Made by a program: the position numbers and the translations under genes. DNA of 44,971 bases from a virus: IMG/VR virus record IMGVR_UViG_3300026487_000006, one strand, 5' to 3'. Shown here one piece after another: positions 128-42,197 of the stretch (the stretch's first letter is position 1; every line of letters starts with the position of its first letter). The notes below the pieces were generated by a model that ran no database searches, was not told where the DNA came from, and was given only the letters and a program-made list of their open reading frames with translations.

Positions 128-2326
128 AGTACCTACTTGTTCCCCGCCCACGATAACAGGTTGGTCGGCTTTTCCTGACACTTCACGCTCAACTTCGACG
201 TCTTCGTAAATGTCTTCAAATTCATCGTCCCACTTGTCGTAACACAGGAATGCGTACATATCGGAATCCAGTCCATGCTTTACCAGCACATCACGAACGT
301 ACTGGGCACCAACACCGAAGTGATACCGCGCATTATCCTCACCTTTATCCGCAACTGCTTCCTTAAACTGAAACTTACGCATCATACCTTTAATTTCTAA
401 AGCAGCCTCTTTCTCTGCTTTTTCAATATCAAGGAAGTTTTTCTTTCTTACGTCGGATGTATTAATCGTACCGGTTGAGGCGTAAACCGTATTAAAGCGG
501 AATTGCGGAAGCCCCAGTGTTTTCGTCGCGTCAGTTGACGGGCGGAAGCTGTTGAATTCGGCAATATAACCCGGAGACAGGTTAACACTGATAGCTGCAA
601 GGGTTAAGGTGCCGTTGCCGGGTGTTGCATTGCCCCCCGTAGCTGAAATGCGCGCATCGTAATCAATGTCGTTGCCAGATGAGTGGAAATCTAAAGTTGC
701 GGTCGCCGCGGTGTCCCGACGCCCCATCTCGATATTCCCTTCCTTAGTTACGGCAAACGTTGTTTTATTGCCGTAAACATCTGGCTGGAACAGAATTTGA
801 AAATCTGAGTTAGCCTGGCTGTGGTACGTGGCCACCGAAGGCCAGATACCGTTGGCGTTTTTACCGGTGAACCCGTAGCCGGTTGCACCACGGCTTTCAT
901 ATCCTTTGTAGTAGTATCCACGCTGCATATAAGCAGTTTCACAACGCTTTGAACCGAGTGTAATTGCGTCATAGCACCATGTGTGCCACGTATCCGTCAC
1001 CGGGTCGTAGTCAAACTTCTCGTTACTAACGCCGAGCTCAAGCCCCACGGCGGCAATTGCGTGAGAATTGGAATCCATAAACACATTCGCATTCATGGCC
1101 CACGCTTTAGTAAACGGGTTAATGTTAACCCCCGTCCCGTTTGCGGGTGTTACTTTTGCGTGACTCGTCGCCAACCCATCGGCAAAATACCAACCCTCTA
1201 CGGTAAGAGACAAACCGTCTGTCGCCCAGCCAGTGAGAATGCCGGAGTATTTAGTAGGCGTATGTTTCGTGTCAATCACCATGCCTGTGCGCAATTTCTT
1301 AAGCTGGTCCGGGCTTAAGGCGGCCGCAAAAGTAACCGAAGTTGGCGTATAAGTACCTGTAGTCGTTGACCCAAGGATTGCCGGTGCGTAGTTTTCTGCG
1401 TGCAGACCAACTGAGTCGCGGTCGACATAAGTCGCAATCTGGTCAGGAGCAATTACCCCAAGAACCTGCGCCGGAGCTTCGGCACCACGGTTAGCACTAA
1501 CGCTAAACGAACAAGCACCGTCCAGAGTCCCGTGGTGCATAATATTGTTATTTCTTACACCTGGGCGGAAGATACGTCCGTTCAGGTTGTTTGGGTTAAC
1601 AAAAGTCGCCCCGGCGTCGCAAACCCAGGATACTGTCCGGCCGCCCGTATCTACCACAGAACTGAGCAAATAAACCCCAGCAGGGACTAAAACCTCGCAG
1701 AAGGGTGCGTGTGCAACCGGCGCATAAACCGAAGGCGCTAAATCTTTAGCGATAACAGCTTTAGCAGCTAAAGCGAAAGCGGCAGAATCGTCGGTAGAGC
1801 CGTTGCCGGTTGCGCCGAAATCTCTGACCGAAATTGATTCGGCGTTTTTATCGTGCTGTGTTCGGGCCACAGACGTTGCGAGTGTCGATTTAACCCCAAC
1901 TAAAGCATCGCCCAGGCCCACGGCAGCGGTGTTTAATAAATCGTCGCGTAGGTTTGGGTCTGTGCGGGGTCTCCAGTTTGAATCGGCTAGCGGGTTGGAG
2001 CCCGCGGGGATTGTTTTTGGTAATGCCCCCGCCCAGGAATACCACGCTTTACTAACACTGTCGTAAACCACTTTGTTGGCGTCGTTTACACCGAGCACAC
2101 CTCCGGACTGGAAGGTGAAACTGGCAGGCTCAAAACCAACATCACGCAGGATAGCAGGCAAAGTTTTTTGCACCTGCCCCGTGTTTTGGTTCGTTGCGTA
2201 ATCAATATCAGAACCGGAGGCAAGGCCGCCGGACTTACCAGTGATAACCTCCGCCTCAAAAATCTGGTTAGTCTTTGCTGTTTTTAAGTCTTCAAGTGAC
2301 AAAACGTCACCGCATCCGCTAGCCAT
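1..2326 (-). CDS. Tailspike/tail fibre with a beta-helix depolymerase-like domain and a C-terminal S74-type intramolecular chaperone. This is the 5' 2326 nt of a 2337-nt gene that continues across the circular junction.
   Basis: The minus frame is open from the ATG at 2326..2324 to the window edge. It is absent from the ORF track because it runs off the edge. My translation contains RDFGATGNGSTDDSAAF (nt 1775-1825), typical of pectate-lyase-like tailspikes. Its C-terminus reads ...INTSDVRKKNFLDIEKAEKEAA...YHFGVGAQYVRDVL...GIRYDELLCFII, resembling the self-cleaving endosialidase/tail-fibre chaperone domain. Confidence 0.85.
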   Translation of the reverse strand, partial: MASGCGDVLSLEDLKTAKTNQIFEAEVITGKSGGLASGSDIDYATNQNTGQVQKTLPAILRDVGFEPASFTFQSGGVLGVNDANKVVYDSVSKAWYSWAGALPKTIPAGSNPLADSNWRPRTDPNLRDDLLNTAAVGLGDALVGVKSTLATSVARTQHDKNAESISVRDFGATGNGSTDDSAAFALAAKAVIAKDLAPSVYAPVAHAPFCEVLVPAGVYLLSSVVDTGGRTVSWVCDAGATFVNPNNLNGRIFRPGVRNNNIMHHGTLDGACSFSVSANRGAEAPAQVLGVIAPDQIATYVDRDSVGLHAENYAPAILGSTTTGTYTPTSVTFAAALSPDQLKKLRTGMVIDTKHTPTKYSGILTGWATDGLSLTVEGWYFADGLATSHAKVTPANGTGVNINPFTKAWAMNANVFMDSNSHAIAAVGLELGVSNEKFDYDPVTDTWHTWCYDAITLGSKRCETAYMQRGYYYKGYESRGATGYGFTGKNANGIWPSVATYHSQANSDFQILFQPDVYGNKTTFAVTKEGNIEMGRRDTAATATLDFHSSGNDIDYDARISATGGNATPGNGTLTLAAISVNLSPGYIAEFNSFRPSTDATKTLGLPQFRFNTVYASTGTINTSDVRKKNFLDIEKAEKEAALEIKGMMRKFQFKEAVADKGEDNARYHFGVGAQYVRDVLVKHGLDSDMYAFLCYDKWDDEFEDIYEDVEVEREVSGKADQPVIVGGEQVGTRQVDVTYKVKVKEKRETGEKRLLKAAGDGYGIRYDELLCFII

Positions 2327-2337
2327 GTTGTACCCTC

Positions 2338-4911
2338 TTATAAGAAACCACTGCTGAAACCTTCGGAGAATGCGTGACCGAAAGGTGACACACCGTCATA
2401 CGCGTAATAATCATCTGTGTAGTTATACCCGGTAATCTTAACTGTTCTGTCGCTTCCGGGCTCTACTGTGGAAACAACTATCATCTGTGCATTATGCCTT
2501 TCTTCACTTCCAAAGGAAAATTCTGTTTTTAAAGCACTGTTGCCGGTGTAGATAGCTTCTTGCGGCGCGGAGGTCATTATCACCGTGCGGTCGTTGTGCC
2601 CAGGGACAACCCCCACACTTTGCACAGACCCATCCCTGCGTTTAAGAATTATTGTATGCTCGTCACCAGGAGTAAACTCTACGTTCTGGGACAGAACCAA
2701 AGTTAACCCATCAACGGCAACCACGTATCCGTCAAAAGGAGAGACACGTGAACCTTTAACCACGCTAATAGCACGGCCTGGTCGGGCAAAAACACCCTCT
2801 TCCATAGCGGTAAACTCAACGGCAACACGGTTAAGGTTATTACGCTGAAATCTTCGATAGGCCGCCCAGTACGCTTGCTGGTAGTTTCGAATACCCTTTG
2901 AGTCGTAAGTTTCAGTCTTTAAACCGCCAGTTGCGGGGATAGTTATTGTCTCTTTAATATTAGTCTTGGGGTCTATGTAGCTAAATTTCAAAGAATCATA
3001 GCGGTCTTTGGTATTGAAATTACGGGTCCATTTCTCCCCTGGCGCTTTGCTTCGATGTGTAAATACCATCTCAGGGCCTAATCGAGGTCTGTCGAAGTCG
3101 AGAAGAATCGCGCTGCCTTCACGATACGGCTTGCAGAAAATAGCGTCGCTAATGATGCTTATCATGTCCTGCATCGTAGCGTCATAAGAGTCAAACGTGT
3201 AACAGAATTGACCTGCTAACGCCGAACCAAAATAGAATTCAACTTCATTCTGAACCGCAATAAGCCGGTCCATGTTTTCGTTTGACAGATTAAGGTTACC
3301 GCATACGGGGTCCCGCAGAAGCCGTATTAACGACTGTATCGCCTGCGTATTGTTAGTTAAGTTAGTATCAAAAACACCGCCACCCAGGTAGCGATAAATT
3401 TTCTCGGTAACAACCAAAGCAAGCTTCGGAGATTTTATAGACGTCGCCCGCGGTGTCTGGCGGCGCGCAGTATGAATTGTTGTCCGGTTGCCGTAGTTAT
3501 TCGTATAGTCGGGCGTCTGTCCATAAAGATTATCGAAGGACACACTGTCTACTACCTGACCATTGAAATCAAAATCTTTGTTAGTAAGTCGCCTGGTACG
3601 GGCGCGGAACGCCGATTCAACCGGCAGCTCACCAATGATAGTAACACCTGTCTGGTCGCTGGAGCGTCCGGAAATATTGCCGGTGCTTTCGTACACAGGG
3701 CCATAAGGCGCTCCGGAATCATCAACAGCCTGGTACTGCAACAAGATATCGACCGAAGCTCTTTGCTTCGCCGATTTCCCGCTATCGCGATACATACCAC
3801 TGCTAGCGCCGTAGTTAGCAACGACTCGTTTACTTTTAACAAGGCTGATGGTAAACCAGTCTGTAAATGACTTTTCGACAAAATTAACAGGGCCTATAGA
3901 GCCTGTATTAGGTTTTAACTGTGCGCCGCTGCTGGTTATCGCGGCCCATACACTCATATTGGTGGAAACATCGATACTGATATCCACGCCACTCACACTC
4001 AACACCACATAATCTCCGCTCAGGTCTATTTCACCTGGTAAAGAAGCAGGGTCTGTCTTTATATTAAACAAACGCACACTGTCGCCCGCGGACATGTAAT
4101 CAGAGAAACCAGAGTCCCCCGTGGGGTCCGTTATAGTGCCTGTGGTGCCGATGCGCGTAGCGTATGACGAATCAGCAGTTGCCGCGTTTAGCTCGTTATT
4201 GGCTTTAAGTTCGGCACCATCAACTTCGTTAGAGACAGCCGTAATGTAAAGATTCTCGGTAATAAGGCCACCTATCTGAACCTGAGGTGAATGGCCGCTG
4301 TTAGGCGAAGTGTATGGTGCGTACACAGCAGCCGAAGAGCCTCCGATTTCAGCAAGTAAGGTGTCTCCGTCAGTAATACCGGAAATGGGTGTATCGAGGG
4401 GGCCGCGGCCCACGTCATAATACCCATACTCAATAACATTACCCGCAGCATCATATTTCTTATAGACCGTCATCAGGTCGTTCGGGATACTCTGCACAGT
4501 CCCGCAGATGTCATAGGTACGCTCATAAGGGCGTGGCTTGTTAGACCTGTCTGTGAGGCTGTTGTTAGGGCTCTGGCCCTGCTGGTTACTGGCAATGCCA
4601 GATGTTGCCGCCTGGGGGCTAATCAGCTTCTGGATGAGCTTAGTCACGCCTAACGGGTCGACGAAAAGCTTGAAGGCAAAGCTGTCGGCAAAGCCACCAC
4701 CAACGGACTCGACAACGAAGAATTCTGCCTCCTCTTTCAGGGCGTCAAAGTCTTCCGTCACGTCGTTCTCTTCACCGATAGCTTCGATGTAAATCTGGAA
4801 AGGCGTACCGTCAGGAATGTGTTTAATAACAAATTCCATTGGCGACATACGGTACTTTTTGCGGTCGAAGCCGCCTTCAGCATTACGTGCCAGGTGGTGG
4901 GTTATCGCCAA
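2338..4911 (-). CDS. Tail tip / host-specificity protein (lambda gpJ-like central fibre)
   Basis: 857-aa ORF located after the K-like gene and before the tailspike. The C-terminal half (..KFSYIDPKTNIKETITIP..AVEFTAMEEG..) resembles the J-type tail_3 domain. Start overlaps the upstream gene by 10 nt. Confidence 0.75.
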   Translation of the reverse strand: MAITHHLARNAEGGFDRKKYRMSPMEFVIKHIPDGTPFQIYIEAIGEENDVTEDFDALKEEAEFFVVESVGGGFADSFAFKLFVDPLGVTKLIQKLISPQAATSGIASNQQGQSPNNSLTDRSNKPRPYERTYDICGTVQSIPNDLMTVYKKYDAAGNVIEYGYYDVGRGPLDTPISGITDGDTLLAEIGGSSAAVYAPYTSPNSGHSPQVQIGGLITENLYITAVSNEVDGAELKANNELNAATADSSYATRIGTTGTITDPTGDSGFSDYMSAGDSVRLFNIKTDPASLPGEIDLSGDYVVLSVSGVDISIDVSTNMSVWAAITSSGAQLKPNTGSIGPVNFVEKSFTDWFTISLVKSKRVVANYGASSGMYRDSGKSAKQRASVDILLQYQAVDDSGAPYGPVYESTGNISGRSSDQTGVTIIGELPVESAFRARTRRLTNKDFDFNGQVVDSVSFDNLYGQTPDYTNNYGNRTTIHTARRQTPRATSIKSPKLALVVTEKIYRYLGGGVFDTNLTNNTQAIQSLIRLLRDPVCGNLNLSNENMDRLIAVQNEVEFYFGSALAGQFCYTFDSYDATMQDMISIISDAIFCKPYREGSAILLDFDRPRLGPEMVFTHRSKAPGEKWTRNFNTKDRYDSLKFSYIDPKTNIKETITIPATGGLKTETYDSKGIRNYQQAYWAAYRRFQRNNLNRVAVEFTAMEEGVFARPGRAISVVKGSRVSPFDGYVVAVDGLTLVLSQNVEFTPGDEHTIILKRRDGSVQSVGVVPGHNDRTVIMTSAPQEAIYTGNSALKTEFSFGSEERHNAQMIVVSTVEPGSDRTVKITGYNYTDDYYAYDGVSPFGHAFSEGFSSGFL

Positions 4912-5267
4912 AATTCAATCCTCGGATAGCGTTTACGAATATCGGTTAATGTTTCAAGTTTAACCTGTTTCGCTGCACGTTCACAGTGGCTGATATAACC
5001 GTTGTAGTATACGCCAGAGTGCCAGATAACCCGGCCCCCGTGGTCATAACCCAGCAGTACAGCATCATAGTCCTGCGGCGCGTCTACTTTAACCAGACCT
5101 TTACTATCAGCGTGGCCTGCGTCGAACATATCCTGTGCTGCCGTGGGGTAGAGCACGTCGAAAGCAGGAGTGTCGATTCCGGCGTCCGCACGGACGTTAC
5201 GGACGTGGTGCCAGCAGTTCCGTTTACGGAAATCATACGGCAACCCGGTATAGTCATTAATATTCAT
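4902..5267 (-). CDS. Tail tip assembly protein, NlpC/P60-like (gpK C-terminal-domain-like)
   Basis: 121 aa. Cys-His motif pair RKRNCWHHV ... VIWHSGVY typical of NlpC/P60. Sits between the L-like and J-like genes with overlapping stops and starts. Confidence 0.65.
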   Translation of the reverse strand: MNINDYTGLPYDFRKRNCWHHVRNVRADAGIDTPAFDVLYPTAAQDMFDAGHADSKGLVKVDAPQDYDAVLLGYDHGGRVIWHSGVYYNGYISHCERAAKQVKLETLTDIRKRYPRIEFWR

Positions 5268-29154: not shown

Positions 29155-29288
29155 TTCACCCCATACGCTTCTTTCAGTGACTTCATAGCAGCAGCCCAGA
29201 ATGATTCAGCTTGCACCTTATCGGCGGAGAAGAATGCGATGCGGGCCATAGATTGTGCGTCTTCGAACGCGCTCTGGTTGATGCTCAT
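29151..29288 (-). CDS. Small hypothetical protein (45 aa)
   Basis: MSINQSAFEDAQS... ATGA overlaps at both ends. Confidence 0.45.
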   Translation of the reverse strand: MSINQSAFEDAQSMARIAFFSADKVQAESFWAAAMKSLKEAYGVK

Positions 29289-29413
29289 TTCTTAAACCAT
29301 TCGCTAGTAATTTTAACCTCGAGATTATCACCGTTGCAGATAATGCATGTGTCGTAAACTACATAAAAAGTTATGGCTTCTGCCAACGTCATAGTTTCAT
29401 ATGATTCTTTCAT
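29285..29413 (-). CDS. Small hypothetical protein (42 aa, CxxC)
   Basis: MKESYETMTLAEA..CIIC.. RBS GAGGTAGTGAGAG. First gene after the promoter. Confidence 0.45.
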   Translation of the reverse strand: MKESYETMTLAEAITFYVVYDTCIICNGDNLEVKITSEWFKK

Positions 29414-29488: not shown

Positions 29489-29520
29489 AAAAAAAAGCCC
29501 CGAGCTATTAACTCAGGGCT
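29489..29520 (-). terminator. Strong rho-independent terminator
   Basis: Minus strand: 9-bp stem AGCCCTGAG/CTCGGGGCT with a 7-nt loop, followed by T8. Confidence 0.9.
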
Positions 29521-29830
29521 TTCGGTCTGCTAACCACACGCAGCGGGAGATAGGGACCACCTCCTCTGAACTCATTGTCGTGTTGGTTGTGGCTGCCGGT
29601 CTTGCACCGGCATTCGAAGGCTAACCATCTGCATTACTTTTATGCTAAACCACAACGGAAAGAACATTGCGCACATTGCCTGGGGTCTATGCTGCTGCGT
29701 GGATTGGCTTATGAAGCCGTCACGCCAATGTTCTTTCCGTTGTGCCCTGTTTCGTAGGGCCTACGGCTCGGCGAGGTTTTCGACAGCGTCTGCGCAGCAG
29801 TTCTATCTAATAATCTGTCCTTACGACCTA
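29521..29830 (-). ncRNA. Candidate structured non-coding RNA or structured 3' UTR of the lysis transcript
   Basis: About 310 nt with no credible ORF. Contains a 19-bp perfect inverted repeat (29651..29669 / 29726..29744), several further hairpins, a promoter-like element upstream and a terminator downstream. Confidence 0.4.
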
Positions 29831-29844
29831 ACTATACAACACTA
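29831..29844 (-). promoter_or_regulatory. Conserved motif AAATAGTGTTGTATAGT (-10-like TATAGT) overlapping the endolysin stop codon
   Basis: One copy of the 11-mer TAGTGTTGTAT. The -35 is weak (TTGGAC at 19 nt). Confidence 0.35.
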
Positions 29845-30327
29845 TTTAACGTCGCGTCCAACCTTTTCTGCCTGCTGCCACAGCATCCCGTCGAACAGTG
29901 CCAGGCGACCGGCAGTGCGGCGGCGCAGGCCGAGGAGTGGCTTGCCATTCTGGTTGATGAACAGCGCAATCTTGGCGCGCAGTGCGGCAACGTCACCACG
30001 ACGCAGCGCCTGGCCCGTACCGGTAGAGGCCGCGATTACCCCCGCGCCTGCGTTGTACACCAGGTCGCATACAGCGTCGAACTGCGGTTGTGTCAGAGAG
30101 GCGGCAGCGGCTGCGTCAACGGCCTGTACTGCTTTAGCCATATCGTTCGCCAGGAGTCGCAGGGCTTGCTCCTCGCTCATGACCTGGTCGGCCGATACGT
30201 CAGCACCGTAATGGCCGTATCCGATAGTCCAGTACTTCTCTGCTGCCGTTGCTTTATACGCTTTGGCCCGGAACTGTTCCCAGGCGGCTGTGAAATGTAA
30301 GCCATTCTCACTGATATTACGTGGCAT
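29842..30327 (-). CDS. Endolysin, lysozyme-like (GH24-type)
   Basis: 161 aa. ..WEQFRAKAYKATAAEKYWTIGYGH.. resembles the T4/P22 lysozyme catalytic region. Follows two membrane-protein genes. Confidence 0.8.
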   Translation of the reverse strand: MPRNISENGLHFTAAWEQFRAKAYKATAAEKYWTIGYGHYGADVSADQVMSEEQALRLLANDMAKAVQAVDAAAAASLTQPQFDAVCDLVYNAGAGVIAASTGTGQALRRGDVAALRAKIALFINQNGKPLLGLRRRTAGRLALFDGMLWQQAEKVGRDVK

Positions 30328-33004: not shown

Positions 33005-33033
33005 ACAATACAACACTAATATTATGGGGTCAA
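33005..33033 (-). promoter_or_regulatory. Sigma70-like early promoter
   Basis: Minus strand reads TTGACC-17nt-TATTGT. The spacer carries TAGTGTTGTAT. Confidence 0.6.
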
Positions 33034-39921: not shown

Positions 39922-42186
39922 ATGATATACACCCCCGATGATGTCTTTATTGACCACGAATCTTTTTCAGAAGCTGACCTTAAACGTGTCGGCTCTTACG
40001 CGTACAGCGAACATAAATCCACCGAGATTCTGCTCACTACCTATGCCTTTGGCGATGAAGCCGTAGAAGCCTACGACGCCACTGCCGGAGGTAAAATACC
40101 AGCGGAACTCCGCGACCTTCTGCGTTATCTCCAACGCAAGCCTGGTAAGAAAGGCAATCCGAAACTAATCGGGGCAAACTACCTCCTGTTCGACCGGCTA
40201 CTTCTCCGTAACTGCTGGGGTTTCGAGATAGACCCGCGCGATATTATCGATACGATGGTGTGCGCATTCCGCCACTCACTCCCCGGCAGCCTGGCTATGC
40301 AATGTGAAGTACTGCAGATTGCCGAAGAGAACGCCAAAGACAAGCGGGGTAAAGCGCTCATACAACGATTCTGTAAGCCTACTCCGAAGAACTATAAAAT
40401 CCGTCGCTATGATGCATCTACGCATCCTGAAGAGTGGAAAGCCTTTATTCAGTACGCTAAATCAGATATTACGTCGATGCGTGAAGTATTCACCGCGCTG
40501 CCAGATTGGGGGAATATTGAGTTCGAGAACACTGTCTTGGCTGTAGACCAGCGTATTAACGACCGTGGCTTCTTCGTAGACACAGCCCTGGCTAATGCAG
40601 CCATCGACGCGGTAAAACACCACAAGATAGAACTCCAGGCAGAAGCTAACGACAAGTACGGCGCAGGCCTGACCGGTGCGGCTTTCCTTCCGACGCTGCG
40701 CGAACTGGCCCCGGCGCACGAAATCCTCAACGCGCAGAAGTCGACGCTTAACGACCTGCTGGCGGATGATGATTTGCCGGATGACGCACGGGTCATTATC
40801 GAGATGCGTCTGGGGGCCAGCTCCACGGCATCTACTAAATATAACCCGTTGTTACTGGGCTTGTCTGCTGATGGCCGGTGCCGGGGGACGATTCAGTATG
40901 GCGCGGCCAAACGAACCCTGCGTTGGGGCGGCCGTCGATTTCAGCCGCAAAACATTTCCCGCGGCTATTTTGACGGAGATGAACTGGCCCACGGCATCGA
41001 AATGCTACTTAAAGGGCGAGCGCATTGGCTTTACGACGTATCCCGCCTTACCGCGTCTACGGTTCGCAGCTGCATCATACCTGAGCCCGGGAATAAGCTG
41101 GTTGTTGCTGACTACTCCAACGTAGAGGGACGTGGACTGGCCTGGCTGGCTGGCGAAGAGACGGCACTGGCTACGTTCCTGGCCGGTCTGGATATCTACT
41201 GTGTTACCGCGGGTAAGATGTTCGGCCTCGGCCCAGACCTGATTAAGAAGACACGTAAAGACCTGCGTCAAATTGGTAAAGCCTGCGAGCTAGGACTCGG
41301 CTACGGAGGAGGTGTCGCTGCGTTCCTGACATTCGCTAAGAACCTCGGGCTGAACCTTTACGAGATGGCTGACGTGATGAAAGGCACATTCCCGGAACAC
41401 ATCTGGGCCGCCGCTAAACGTGGCTATGAGTACGCCCGCATCCAGGAGAAGAACAAGCGCGGCTTTAACGACCAGAAACCTGACCGTCCGTCTTACGACC
41501 TGCCTAAAAATGTGTGGCTGACGTGTGACAGCATCAAGCGCATGTGGCGTGAGTCACACCCGGCAACCTGTCGATTCTGGAATGACCTCGAAGCCGCAGC
41601 GATGAACGCTATTAAGAATCCTGGCGAAGAGTTCTGGGCCGGCGCAGCGGTGCGGGTGAATGGCGACCGGGCGATTAAGATTACCCGAACCGGCACAGCC
41701 CGTAAGCCGGGGTGGTGGTTAAAAGTGGAGCTGCCGTCGGGACGTATCCTGTCTTATCCCGGTATCGGGATATCTGTTGAAAAATCCGTTGAAGAGGATA
41801 ATGTTGGTGATTACATCGCTCATGTTAAGGAAGGGACAATACACTTGCGCGCTGAACCTAAAGTTACTTACCGCGAACGCATCCGCTACATGGGCGAGAA
41901 TCAGACTACACGGCAATGGGGTAAGCAGTATACCTACGGCGGCAAGCTGTCGGAAAACATCACACAGGCGCTCTGCCGTGACCTGCTGGCCGTAGCGCTG
42001 GTGCGTGTAGATGCTGAAGGCTGGCCTATTATACTCCATATTCATGACGAAGTGGTCTGCGAGGTGCCAAAGACAGAAGAATATTCTGTTGCGAAGCTGG
42101 AGGCTATGATGTGTGAATTGCCGTCGTGGGCTAATGGCTTCCCTTTAGCGGCGGAAGGTGCAGAATTAATGCGCTATGCCAAATAG
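39922..42186 (+). CDS. Family-A DNA polymerase (Pol I-like)
   Basis: 754 aa. Motif A VVADYSNVEGR, motif B RQIGKACELGLGYGGG, motif C HIHDEVV. Confidence 0.92.
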   Translation: MIYTPDDVFIDHESFSEADLKRVGSYAYSEHKSTEILLTTYAFGDEAVEAYDATAGGKIPAELRDLLRYLQRKPGKKGNPKLIGANYLLFDRLLLRNCWGFEIDPRDIIDTMVCAFRHSLPGSLAMQCEVLQIAEENAKDKRGKALIQRFCKPTPKNYKIRRYDASTHPEEWKAFIQYAKSDITSMREVFTALPDWGNIEFENTVLAVDQRINDRGFFVDTALANAAIDAVKHHKIELQAEANDKYGAGLTGAAFLPTLRELAPAHEILNAQKSTLNDLLADDDLPDDARVIIEMRLGASSTASTKYNPLLLGLSADGRCRGTIQYGAAKRTLRWGGRRFQPQNISRGYFDGDELAHGIEMLLKGRAHWLYDVSRLTASTVRSCIIPEPGNKLVVADYSNVEGRGLAWLAGEETALATFLAGLDIYCVTAGKMFGLGPDLIKKTRKDLRQIGKACELGLGYGGGVAAFLTFAKNLGLNLYEMADVMKGTFPEHIWAAAKRGYEYARIQEKNKRGFNDQKPDRPSYDLPKNVWLTCDSIKRMWRESHPATCRFWNDLEAAAMNAIKNPGEEFWAGAAVRVNGDRAIKITRTGTARKPGWWLKVELPSGRILSYPGIGISVEKSVEEDNVGDYIAHVKEGTIHLRAEPKVTYRERIRYMGENQTTRQWGKQYTYGGKLSENITQALCRDLLAVALVRVDAEGWPIILHIHDEVVCEVPKTEEYSVAKLEAMMCELPSWANGFPLAAEGAELMRYAK

Positions 42187-42197
42187 TGTTGTATTAC
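42184..42197 (+). promoter_or_regulatory. Conserved motif AAATAGTGTTGTATTAC overlapping the polymerase stop codon
   Basis: One copy of the 11-mer TAGTGTTGTAT with a -10-like TATTAC. No good -35. Confidence 0.35.

What the first reader, a model, noticed from the sequence alone, without database searches (positions are those of the whole stretch)
29489..29844. About 300-nt ORF-free, highly structured region between the endolysin gene and a strong terminator: candidate novel ncRNA
The endolysin stop lies at 29842, but the first terminator (9-bp stem plus U8 on the minus strand) is at 29520..29489. That leaves about 320 nt with no credible ORF. The region contains six structural or repeat features. 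(a) A 19-bp perfect inverted repeat, 29651..29669 / 29726..29744 (CACAACGGAAAGAACATTG / CAATGTTCTTTCCGTTGTG), encloses a 56-nt loop. (b) An 8-nt segment of that loop (29692..29699, CTGCTGCG) is perfectly complementary to 29793..29800, outside the stem. This gives a pseudoknot-type or alternative pairing reminiscent of a switch. (c) There are three further hairpins: TGCCGGT-cttgc-ACCGGCA (29594..29612), GGCTT-atg-AAGCC (29706..29718) and CCCT-gtttcgt-AGGG (29745..29759). (d) Three direct copies of GCTAA(A)CCA lie at 29529, 29620 and 29644. (e) At the upstream (minus-strand) edge, the conserved motif AAATAGTGTTGTATAGT provides a -10-like TATAGT at 29836..29831. (f) The next early promoter starts only about 12 nt beyond the terminator. 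A long perfect stem, crossing complementarity and a dedicated terminator are not expected from a simple 3' UTR. The RNA could be a regulatory or anti-defence RNA, a protein-sponging RNA, or a cis element controlling lysis timing. I recognise no known RNA family in it.
Basis: partly seen in the sequence, partly recalled or inferred. Interest (0 to 1): 0.7.

Follow-up and report, generated by a model that had tools for sequence, protein, structure and literature searches.

The report
Conserved tRNA-like RNA cassette after endolysin
The gene-free stretch after the endolysin gene holds a horizontally acquired, conserved structured RNA (a long stem enclosing two hairpins, followed by a tRNA-shaped unit) from a large unannotated family that, in hundreds of other phages, lies next to tRNA genes and a tmRNA-like tag-coding RNA.

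Summary
The 19-bp inverted repeat is real. It is the closing stem (the "clamp") of a three-way-junction RNA read from the minus strand.

I found 106 homologous copies (62 unique). They are 99.2% paired, and 7 base pairs show compensatory changes against 1.1 in shuffles. No Rfam family matches.

In lambdoid prophages this RNA always lies between the Q antiterminator gene and the lysis genes. In the window it is a ~250-nt insertion relative to Pantoea phage AH01.

Scanning with the clamp arms alone revealed a much larger family. The clamp is conserved, its "cargo" is hypervariable, and a tRNA-like unit follows. This family occurs in hundreds of enterobacterial phages, next to tRNA genes. In HK620, N4-like, ViI-like and FelixO1-like phages it lies next to a tmRNA-like RNA encoding 10-aa tags (ANDDVVLMAA, ANEEMYLAVA).

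The window copy has no tag frame, no G·U pair in the clamp, no T-loop and no CCA. It is therefore a solitary, reduced member of the family.

The proposed pseudoknot is at chance level, and the three direct repeats are not significant.

The most likely function is a tRNA-mimicking RNA matured by tRNA-processing enzymes. That mechanism is inferred, not shown.

The parts
29831..29860 (-). Sigma-70-like promoter candidate, TGGACG-18-TATAGT. It overlaps the endolysin stop codon. It contains the repeated motif TAGTGTTGTAT.
   Evidence: Promoter scan. The motif has 3 copies against 0.08 expected. One copy sits in a good promoter at 33005-33021. The Klebsiella phage counterpart has TTGACT-17-TATTGT at the same relative place. 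Function is inferred.
29774..29837 (-). 5' segment homologous to the start of a long non-coding, tRNA-linked region of ~60-kb Klebsiella siphophages. It contains the local hairpin CUGC-UGC-GCAG.
   Evidence: blastn 80% identity over 63-65 nt to 9 Klebsiella phage records. Context.
29745..29759 (-). 4-bp hairpin CCCU-ACGAAAC-AGGG that directly abuts the clamp.
   Evidence: Sequence. Homologous CUCC-ACGAAAC-GGAG in L013, L029, L036, L057 and others.
29726..29744 (-). Clamp (P1) 5' arm, CACAACGGAAAGAACAUUG.
   Evidence: Conserved as CACAACAGG(U/A)AAGAGCAUUG in hundreds of phages.
29697..29725 (-). P2: GCGUG/CACGC plus GGC/GCC, capped by the loop UUCAUAA. This is an anticodon-loop-like loop with CAU at its centre.
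   Evidence: RNAalifold and pair counts. The third apical pair is G-C in 54 sequences, C-G in 6 and A-U in 1. With the loop left free in the search pattern, CAU was kept in 105 of 106 copies.
29671..29692 (-). P3: GCAU(A)/(U)GUGC hairpin with a variable loop.
   Evidence: Compensatory changes occur in L070 and L086.
29651..29669 (-). Clamp (P1) 3' arm, CAAUGUUCUUUCCGUUGUG. Its last bases overlap the 5' strand of the tRNA-like unit.
   Evidence: In L070 a real tRNA-Arg starts inside the last 3 nt of this arm.
29586..29655 (-). tRNA-like unit. It consists of the acceptor-like strand UUGUGGUU, a D-like hairpin (29631-29645), an 18-nt linker, a T-like hairpin (29594-29612) and the strand GCCACAAC (29586-29593). 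There is no encoded CCA.
   Evidence: The fold is cloverleaf-like, z = -1.94. Positional homology to 84 related units: in 80% a hairpin abuts the CACCACAA strand, against 14.6% at random positions. There are 21 different stem sequences, and 6 units have canonical T-loops.
29489..29583 (-). Backbone terminator module shared with Pantoea phage AH01. It has a 14-pair stem and a U8 run. The stem-loop is identical to the terminator downstream of PR' in HK620.
   Evidence: A 31-nt 100% match to HK620, HK633 and Emek. HK620 annotation.
29842..30327 (-). Endolysin gene (upstream context only).
   Evidence: ORF. Annotated homologues.

Best explanation
Window 29586-29767 on the minus strand is a horizontally acquired RNA cassette of a large, undescribed phage family. 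A conserved ~19-bp clamp helix encloses a structured cargo. Here the cargo is two hairpins, one capped by a CAU anticodon-like loop. The clamp abuts a tRNA-shaped unit.

The cassette is transcribed with the lysis operon, or from its own promoter at the endolysin stop codon, and ends at the backbone terminator.

I infer that host tRNA-maturation enzymes cut at the clamp/tRNA-like junction, with RNase P the most likely candidate. This would release a very stable three-way-junction RNA of about 95 nt and a tRNA-like RNA of about 70 nt. I further infer that these act as tRNA/tmRNA mimics that bind a host translation or tRNA-directed factor. It is an accessory function, not a lysis switch.

Shown: homology, structure, strand, genomic context and the insertion. 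Inferred: processing and mimicry.

The stated confidence applies to the whole statement including the inferred mechanism. The descriptive part alone I would put near 0.9.
For: Structure and conservation:
- 106 copies, 62 unique.
- 99.2% of cells are paired.
- 7 pairs have changes on both sides against 1.1 in shuffles (0 of 500 shuffles reach this). Slid controls give 0-3.

Strand: a U·G wobble is present in 57 of 62 sequences. It would be a C·A mismatch on the other strand.

Context:
- The element lies between Q and the holin/lysozyme genes, on the gene strand, in nearly all lambdoid loci (annotated examples).
- It begins right after an isrJ-type short RNA terminator.
- tRNA genes are adjacent in many loci, and in L070 a tRNA-Arg begins inside the clamp's 3' end.

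Superfamily:
- The clamp is conserved around dozens of unrelated cargos of 25-170 nt, some containing canonical T-arm sequences.
- The clamp motif hits 482 phage records and 1699 of 5426 E. coli genomes. This search used a permissive E-value limit of 10, so it includes partial hits.

tRNA-like unit:
- A hairpin abuts the acceptor-like strand in 80% of units against 14.6% at random positions.
- There are 21 covarying stem sequences.
- 6 units have canonical T-loops.
- CCA follows in about a third of units.

tmRNA link in relatives:
- The same clamp type flanks a tag-coding RNA with 10-aa tags of the form AN[DE]..L[AM][AV]A.
- Rfam tmRNA_permuted scores 33 bits, E = 6e-5, below its gathering threshold of 47.
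- A pseudoknot after the tag shows compensatory changes by my reading of the sequences printed.

Insertion: the cassette replaces 34 nt of AH01 sequence between the endolysin stop and the shared terminator.
Against: - There are no expression or processing data for any member.
- The window copy lacks a tag frame, a T-loop, an encoded CCA and the conserved U·G pair. Its tRNA-like fold is only marginally better than shuffles (z = -1.94).
- The acceptor-like helix has no G3·U70 pair, so charging by AlaRS is unlikely.
- ARAGORN and Rfam call no tRNA or tmRNA here.
- AH01 does without the cassette, so it is dispensable for this phage type.
- The near-identity to L009 (95%) means that intactness could simply reflect recent transfer.
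- Conservation of much of P2 was imposed by my search patterns.
Confidence: 0.45

Rival explanations
1. RNA processing and stability element. The long clamp helix is an RNase III-type or exonuclease-blocking structure. It defines and protects the 3' end of the lysis mRNA, or the ends of neighbouring tRNAs and small RNAs. The cargo has no function of its own.
For: A 19-bp perfect stem with very low folding energy. It sits in transcribed spacers between genes, tRNAs and small RNAs. The hypervariable cargo in the superfamily fits a role that depends only on the helix.
Against: The cargo of this subfamily is itself conserved, with compensatory changes in P2 and P3. The clamp sequence is conserved far beyond what a helix-only signal needs, including a specific U·G pair. 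A strong terminator hairpin already protects the 3' end.
Confidence: 0.2
2. Evolutionary debris or recombination linker. The cassette is a decayed fragment of a tRNA/tmRNA-like gene cluster carried in by mosaic recombination. The conserved clamp arms act at the DNA level as boundary sequences for module exchange. There is no RNA function in this phage.
For: The window copy lacks a tag, a T-loop, CCA and the U·G pair. It is absent from the closest phage. In CUS-3, annotated 'boundary sequences' flank the clamp region. Homology breaks coincide with the clamp ends.
Against: Compensatory changes and strand-specific G·U pairs indicate selection on RNA pairing. The window stem is perfect rather than decayed. 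Promoter-like and terminator signals frame the cassette.
Confidence: 0.2
3. A single ~300-nt regulatory RNA uses a pseudoknot or alternative pairing to act as a switch controlling lysis timing.
For: An 8-nt complementarity crosses the stem. The location is next to the lysis genes.
Against: A second, unrelated 8-mer complement lies in the same region, and about one is expected by chance. The partner sequence is missing in the lambdoid homologues. The element lies downstream of the lysis genes here and upstream of them in prophages.
Confidence: 0.03
4. A small protein gene explains the region.
For: A 34-aa ATG ORF at 29572-29676 on the minus strand.
Against: Its start and first codons lie in P3 and the clamp, where most homologues differ. 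Downstream of the clamp the homologues share no sequence with the window. No ribosome-binding site is evident.
Confidence: 0.02

Closest known systems
Circularly permuted (two-piece) tmRNA genes (Rfam RF04321, RF01849)
   Same: In relatives (HK620, IME11, HC6, Magnus, Klebsiella phage VLCpiS10a) the same clamp type flanks an RNA with three tmRNA-like features. First, the resume context AUAAAU-GCA-AAC-GA. Second, 10-aa tags ending LAVA, LMAA or LAAA. Third, a stop codon in a hairpin followed by pseudoknots. The order along the RNA is hairpin, long helix enclosing a variable segment, UUUUCG motif, tag. This mirrors the order in permuted tmRNA genes: T-arm, acceptor stem enclosing the excised spacer, UUUCGAC, tag.
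   Different: The window copy has no tag frame. No canonical tRNA-like domain is present: no G3·U70 with ACCA, and ARAGORN finds no tmRNA in 37 of 38 tag-bearing loci. Rfam scores stay below the gathering threshold. The helix is ~19 bp rather than 7 bp.
tRNA genes and tRNA-like structures in phage tRNA clusters (for example the stable RNAs of the T4 tRNA region; from my own knowledge)
   Same: Adjacent to tRNA genes. Acceptor-like helix with an abutting hairpin. Canonical T-loops and an N-CCA end in some relatives.
   Different: Not detected by ARAGORN or the Rfam tRNA model. The middle region is hypervariable instead of an anticodon arm. The window copy lacks a T-loop and CCA.
Bacterial Y RNAs (YrlA) (from my own knowledge)
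   Same: A conserved long stem formed by the 5' and 3' parts, combined with a variable tRNA-mimicking module.
   Different: No Rfam hit. The stem sequence is different. I did not test for linkage to an rsr gene.
Short prophage sRNAs of the lambdoid late leader (IsrJ, STnc100/PasD, PasA/C, StxS)
   Same: They share the same intergenic region between Q and the lysis genes. An isrJ-type RNA ends immediately upstream of the element in L004. See the Pas preprint 10.64898/2026.05.13.724894, and PMC7547250 for StxS.
   Different: Those are terminator-ended, Hfq-binding sRNAs. The clamp cassette is a separate element between them and matches none of their Rfam models.

Membership tests
tmRNA (standard or permuted) | Tag reading frame with a resume codon and an in-frame stop | tested here: not met
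   No GCAAACGA or other tag start anywhere in the window. It is present in relatives.
tmRNA (standard or permuted) | tRNA-like domain with G3·U70, A73-CCA and a T-arm | tested here: not met
   The window acceptor-like helix UUGUGGUU/AGCCACAA has G3-C70. CCAA follows it, not N-CCA. The T-like loop is GCAAG. The clamp wobble pair is U-A in the window.
tmRNA (standard or permuted) | Match to Rfam or ARAGORN tmRNA models | tested here: not met
   No hit at E <= 10. ARAGORN reports none.
tRNA | Cloverleaf recognised by ARAGORN or Rfam RF00005 | tested here: not met
   The fold is only cloverleaf-like, z = -1.94.
Clamp-cargo plus tRNA-like cassette (family defined here; I found no description of it) | Clamp arms CACAAC(A)GGNAAGARCAUUG ... 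CARUGYUCUNUCCGUUGUG that pair with each other | tested here: met
Clamp-cargo plus tRNA-like cassette (family defined here; I found no description of it) | The clamp is followed by GUGGUN, then a hairpin that abuts a complementary NCCACAA strand | tested here: met
   Window row. Family statistics.
Any curated RNA family (Rfam 15) | Covariance-model match | tested here: not met
   The only weak hits fall on the terminator.
Riboswitch or pseudoknot switch | Conserved alternative or crossing pairing | tested here: not met
MITE or other transposable element | Terminal inverted repeats with target-site duplication and a conserved interior | tested here: not met
   No duplication at the flanks. The interior is hypervariable while the arms are conserved. 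G·U asymmetry points to selection on RNA.
RNase III or RNase P substrate | Cleavage by the enzyme | not testable with these tools
   Only the geometry can be assessed.

The most novel reading that the evidence does not exclude
The clamp-cargo plus tRNA-like cassettes, together with the tag-coding RNA they flank in HK620-like, N4-like, ViI-like and FelixO1-like phages, form a previously unrecognised, phage-specific class of rearranged tmRNA/tRNA mimics. The hypervariable cargos would be decoys that titrate host tRNA-directed factors. For the window cargo the target would be a factor that reads the CAU anticodon loop shared by tRNA-fMet, tRNA-Met and tRNA-Ile2. Possible targets include anticodon nucleases, tRNA-modifying toxins, or SmpB and aminoacyl-tRNA synthetases. 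The window element would be an active solo decoy.
Probability: 0.2. Interest if true: 0.9.

Novelty: new variant of a known kind. Interest (0 to 1): 0.75.

Why it matters
If real, this is an abundant RNA family that genome annotation misses completely. Records show "none" or spurious tiny ORFs under it. It is shared by temperate and virulent enterobacterial phages of unrelated families. It points to RNA-level mimicry of tRNA and tmRNA as a common accessory strategy in phages. It may also account for part of the long "gene-free" regions next to phage tRNA clusters, and for part of the long late-operon leader of many lambdoid prophages. It gives a concrete, testable set of molecules: tag peptides, a processed three-way-junction RNA and tRNA-like RNAs.

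Tried and rejected
- Rfam scans of the window region, L004, L070, HK620 and IME11 gave no family for the clamp. They returned only isrJ, tRNA, and weak tmRNA, STnc100 and DicF hits nearby.
- ARAGORN found no tRNA or tmRNA in the window and no tmRNA in 37 of 38 tag-bearing loci.
- I searched for cis antisense targets of the P2 and P3 loops within +/-2.5 kb. Only chance-level 8-10-mers turned up, with no covariation with the loop variants.
- I tested whether the cargo derives from phage tRNA-Met or tRNA-Arg by local alignment. The scores were not significant, with 113 to 725 of 2000 shuffles reaching them.
- Integron attC, retron, CRISPR-repeat mimic, hammerhead-type ribozyme and Y RNA were considered from memory. 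I set them aside because no defining motif or partner gene was seen. These were not formal tests.
- An Ala-type (G3·U70) reading of the clamp top is attractive for relatives: U·G is present in 66 of 86 clamps. It fails for the window copy, and the register is ambiguous.
- Literature searches for the clamp sequence, the tag peptides and phage tmRNA-like RNAs found nothing that describes this family.
- My first regular expression for the tRNA-like units was wrong. I corrected it.

Full report
**Setting.** The window is a Guernseyvirinae (Jersey-like) siphophage. Its nearest record is Pantoea phage AH01, at ~85% identity over 37% of the 25-kb segment queried. Around the finding all genes run on the minus strand. 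The endolysin gene is at 29842-30327, and the next small gene is at 29285-29413. I therefore read the region 5'->3' on the minus strand.

**Checking the observation.**
- The 19-nt perfect inverted repeat, the three extra hairpins, the 8-nt complementarity, the GCTAA(A)CCA copies, the terminator and the downstream promoter-like site are all at the stated coordinates.
- The 108-nt core folds at -47.9 kcal/mol with z = -6.15.
- Two items do not exceed chance. The crossing 8-mer has an unrelated twin in the same 380 nt, and its partner is not conserved. The direct repeats are matched by 6 of 100 shuffles.
- The motif at the endolysin stop is a real repeat, with 3 copies against 0.08 expected. Elsewhere in the window it forms the spacer and -10 of a good promoter. 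A promoter at 29860-29831 is therefore plausible.

**The region is a mosaic.**
- In AH01 the endolysin stop is followed after ~50 nt by the same terminator module that the window has at 29489-29583.
- The window replaces 34 nt of AH01 sequence with ~250 nt (29584-29833). It also lacks AH01 gene 9.
- The terminator stem-loop is identical to the terminator downstream of PR' in HK620 and other P22-like phages.
- Window 29774-29837 matches the start of a long non-coding, tRNA-linked region of ~60-kb Klebsiella siphophages, where a strong promoter precedes it.

**The inverted repeat is the closing stem of a conserved three-way junction.**
- blastn found the 96-nt core in Cronobacter phage ENT39118 (88%), in two E. 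coli chromosomes and in an Enterobacter plasmid-borne prophage.
- Pattern scans found 77 viral contigs, 25 metagenome contigs and 4 species-representative genomes (Enterobacter and Pseudocitrobacter).
- This gave 106 complete copies, 62 of them unique.
- RNAalifold predicts three helices:
  - P1, the inverted repeat.
  - P2, GCGUG/CACGC plus a 3-bp apex with a 7-nt loop.
  - P3, a 4-5-bp stem with a ~15-nt loop.
- On this structure 99.2% of cells pair. Seven pairs change on both sides, against 1.1 in shuffles (0 of 500 reach this) and 0-3 when the partners are slid.
- A caveat applies. My patterns fixed much of P2 and the top of P1, so the invariance there carries no information. The compensatory changes lie in positions that were left free.
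- A U·G pair present in 57 of 62 sequences would be a C·A mismatch on the other strand. The RNA is therefore the gene-sense (minus) strand.
- With the P2 loop left free in the search pattern, the loop stayed YYCAUAA and the central CAU was kept in 105 of 106 copies.
- The common form, GGGCUCAUAACCC, equals the anticodon stem-loop of E. coli initiator tRNA. CUCAUAA is the anticodon loop of all three CAU tRNAs. Both statements come from my own knowledge. The window has GGCUUCAUAAGCC.

**Context of the homologues.**
- In nearly all lambdoid loci the element lies downstream of the Q antiterminator gene and upstream of the holin and lysozyme genes, on their strand (annotated cases).
- In L004 it starts just after the terminator of an RNA that matches Rfam isrJ at 58.9 bits. 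It is therefore inside the Q-dependent late leader.
- tRNA genes are often adjacent. In L070 a tRNA-Arg(UCU) begins within the last three bases of P1.

**A much larger family.**
- The arms CACAACAGG(U/A)AAGAGCAUUG ... CAGUGCUCUUUCCGUUGUG are conserved. The enclosed cargo (25-170 nt) is hypervariable, with dozens of unrelated sequences. Several contain canonical T-arm motifs.
- Variant arms carry compensatory changes, for example AUGAGAG/CUCUCAG. A U·G pair next to the core is present in 66 of 86 unique clamps.
- blastn with the arms found 482 phage records and 1699 of 5426 complete E. coli genomes. This search used an E-value limit of 10, so it includes partial hits.
- The phage hits include temperate phages (HK620, HK633, HK629, CUS-3) and virulent ones (N4-like IME11, Ackermannviridae Magnus, HC6, SopranoGao).
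- The match is almost never annotated. In CUS-3, "boundary sequences" are annotated on either side of it. In lytic phages it lies in gene-free stretches next to tRNA genes.

**The unit after the clamp is tRNA-like.** Downstream of the clamp comes GUGGUG, often a D-arm-like hairpin (GCGC-AGGCUGAU-GCGC), a variable stretch, and then a hairpin that directly abuts the complementary strand CACCACAA. Among 84 unique units:
- 67 have such an abutting hairpin, against 14.6% at random positions.
- 21 different stem sequences keep the pairing.
- Six have canonical T-loops (UUCGAUU or UUCGAGU).
- CCA follows CACCACAA plus one base in about a third.

The window has the same layout: UUGUGGUU, the hairpin at 29631-29645, an 18-nt linker, the hairpin at 29594-29612, and GCCACAAC at 29586-29593. 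It has a 5-nt loop in the T-like hairpin and no CCA, and its fold is only marginally better than shuffles.

**Link to tmRNA.**
- In HK620, IME11, HC6, Magnus and Klebsiella phage VLCpiS10a, the clamp is part of a ~350-nt scaffold. The order is:
  1. a first clamp with cargo;
  2. the motif AGUUUUCG;
  3. the resume context AUAAAU followed by GCAAACGA;
  4. a short reading frame ending in a stop codon inside a hairpin;
  5. two pseudoknots, which show compensatory changes by my reading of the sequences;
  6. a second clamp;
  7. the tRNA-like unit.
- The frames encode ANEEMYLAVA, ANDDVVLMAA, ANDEQFLAVA, ANDNVFLAVA, ANDDLMLMAA and similar peptides. All are 10 aa long.
- Rfam tmRNA_permuted scores 33.1 bits (E = 6e-5, gathering threshold 47) and alpha_tmRNA scores E = 3e-4 on IME11. 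The scores are weaker on HK620.
- A canonical permuted tmRNA with a similar tag (ANDNAFLMAA) is recognised by ARAGORN in one viral contig, L262. The enterobacterial-phage versions are not recognised.
- The HK620 tag core matches 661 phage records, including Ackermannviridae, Felixounavirus, N4-like phages and SSU5. None is annotated as an RNA.
- I found no paper containing the clamp sequence or these tags. The tmRNA database papers list phage tmRNAs mainly from mycobacteriophages and Bacillus phage G (PMC4131195) and 79 phage sequences in 2025 (PMC11915505).
- The window has one clamp unit and no tag start, no UUUUCG motif next to it, and no T-loop. It is a solitary, reduced member.

**Mechanism.**
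- Shown: a conserved, covarying RNA structure on the transcribed strand. It is inserted between the lysis genes and a terminator. It belongs to a family tied to tRNA genes and to a tmRNA-like RNA.
- Inferred: the geometry places a tRNA-like 5' end exactly at the foot of the clamp, and in L070 a real tRNA sits there. I therefore expect RNase P and the 3'-end tRNA-processing enzymes to cut the cassette into a stable three-way-junction RNA and a tRNA-like RNA.
- Several features fit an accessory, conflict-related role such as tRNA or tmRNA mimicry better than a housekeeping regulatory element:
  - hypervariable cargos;
  - spread across unrelated phages;
  - location in accessory hot spots;
  - the CAU anticodon-like loop.
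Each is weighed in its own entry.

**Verdict.** The finding is a real RNA element. Its interpretation as a novel ncRNA is right in outline and wrong in its details. Its main value is that it led to a large unannotated RNA family.

Noticed in passing
L224 (HK620) 1889-1921; L225 (IME11) 2388-2420; L005 about 2535-2567 on the minus strand; many IMG/VR loci: An unannotated tmRNA-like tag-coding RNA with 10-aa tags (ANEEMYLAVA, ANDDVVLMAA and similar), followed by covarying pseudoknots. It occurs in 661 phage records, including ViI-like, FelixO1-like and N4-like phages and SSU5. ARAGORN does not call it.
   Followed up: partly
window 29493-29523: The terminator stem-loop is identical (31 nt) to the terminator downstream of PR' in HK620, HK633 and Emek. 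It is annotated in HK620 as a putative qut site. A lambdoid late-leader piece therefore sits in a virulent Jersey-like phage and in AH01.
   Followed up: partly
window 33005-33021 (-) and 42181-42197 (+): Two further copies of the motif TAGTGTTGTAT. The first lies in a TTGACC-17-TATTGT promoter. The second is immediately followed by a long hairpin with a U-run (AAGGUGACAGUGCU...AGUGCUGUCACCUUUUCUC). This could be a shared operator or promoter element.
   Followed up: no
L004 5111-5187 (-): The short RNA between the Q gene and the element matches Rfam isrJ (58.9 bits). IsrJ-type sRNAs are probably the terminated PR'-proximal transcripts of these prophages.
   Followed up: no
L004 about 4880-5005 (-), and the same type in L006, L010, L014 and others: A ~125-nt tRNA-like RNA with a canonical T-arm (AUCGG-UUCGAGU-CCGAU) and the acceptor pairing GUGGUG/CGCCAC. 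It has three internal hairpins in place of the D and anticodon arms. One of these hairpins covaries (CUGGC/GCCAG, CCGG/CCGG, CUGGA/UCCAG). Neither ARAGORN nor Rfam detects it.
   Followed up: partly
alignment A4 columns 70-75 (P3 loop): The two common loop variants, UUGGCG and CGCCAA, are reverse complements of each other. This looks like a small inversion inside the loop.
   Followed up: no
L175 6430-6447 and 6800-6817; also L128, L306, L319: Clamp units occur in tandem arrays, as CACCACAAC-A-CACAACAGG... The GUUGUG strand can then pair either with the upstream or with the downstream CACAAC copy.
   Followed up: no
L070 7101-7150; also downstream in L075, L078 and L083-L085: A DicF-like sequence (Rfam E = 0.024) follows the cassette in loci that lack Q and lysis genes. 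The cassette therefore also occurs in other prophage operons.
   Followed up: no
L225 (IME11) 1553-3639; L226 (Magnus) 2000-4900: Gene-free regions of up to 2 kb next to phage tRNA clusters are packed with degenerate tRNA-like hairpins. Some are annotated as tiny hypothetical ORFs. A similar 'unusual 2 kb region' is mentioned for phage CBA120 (PMC3184105).
   Followed up: no
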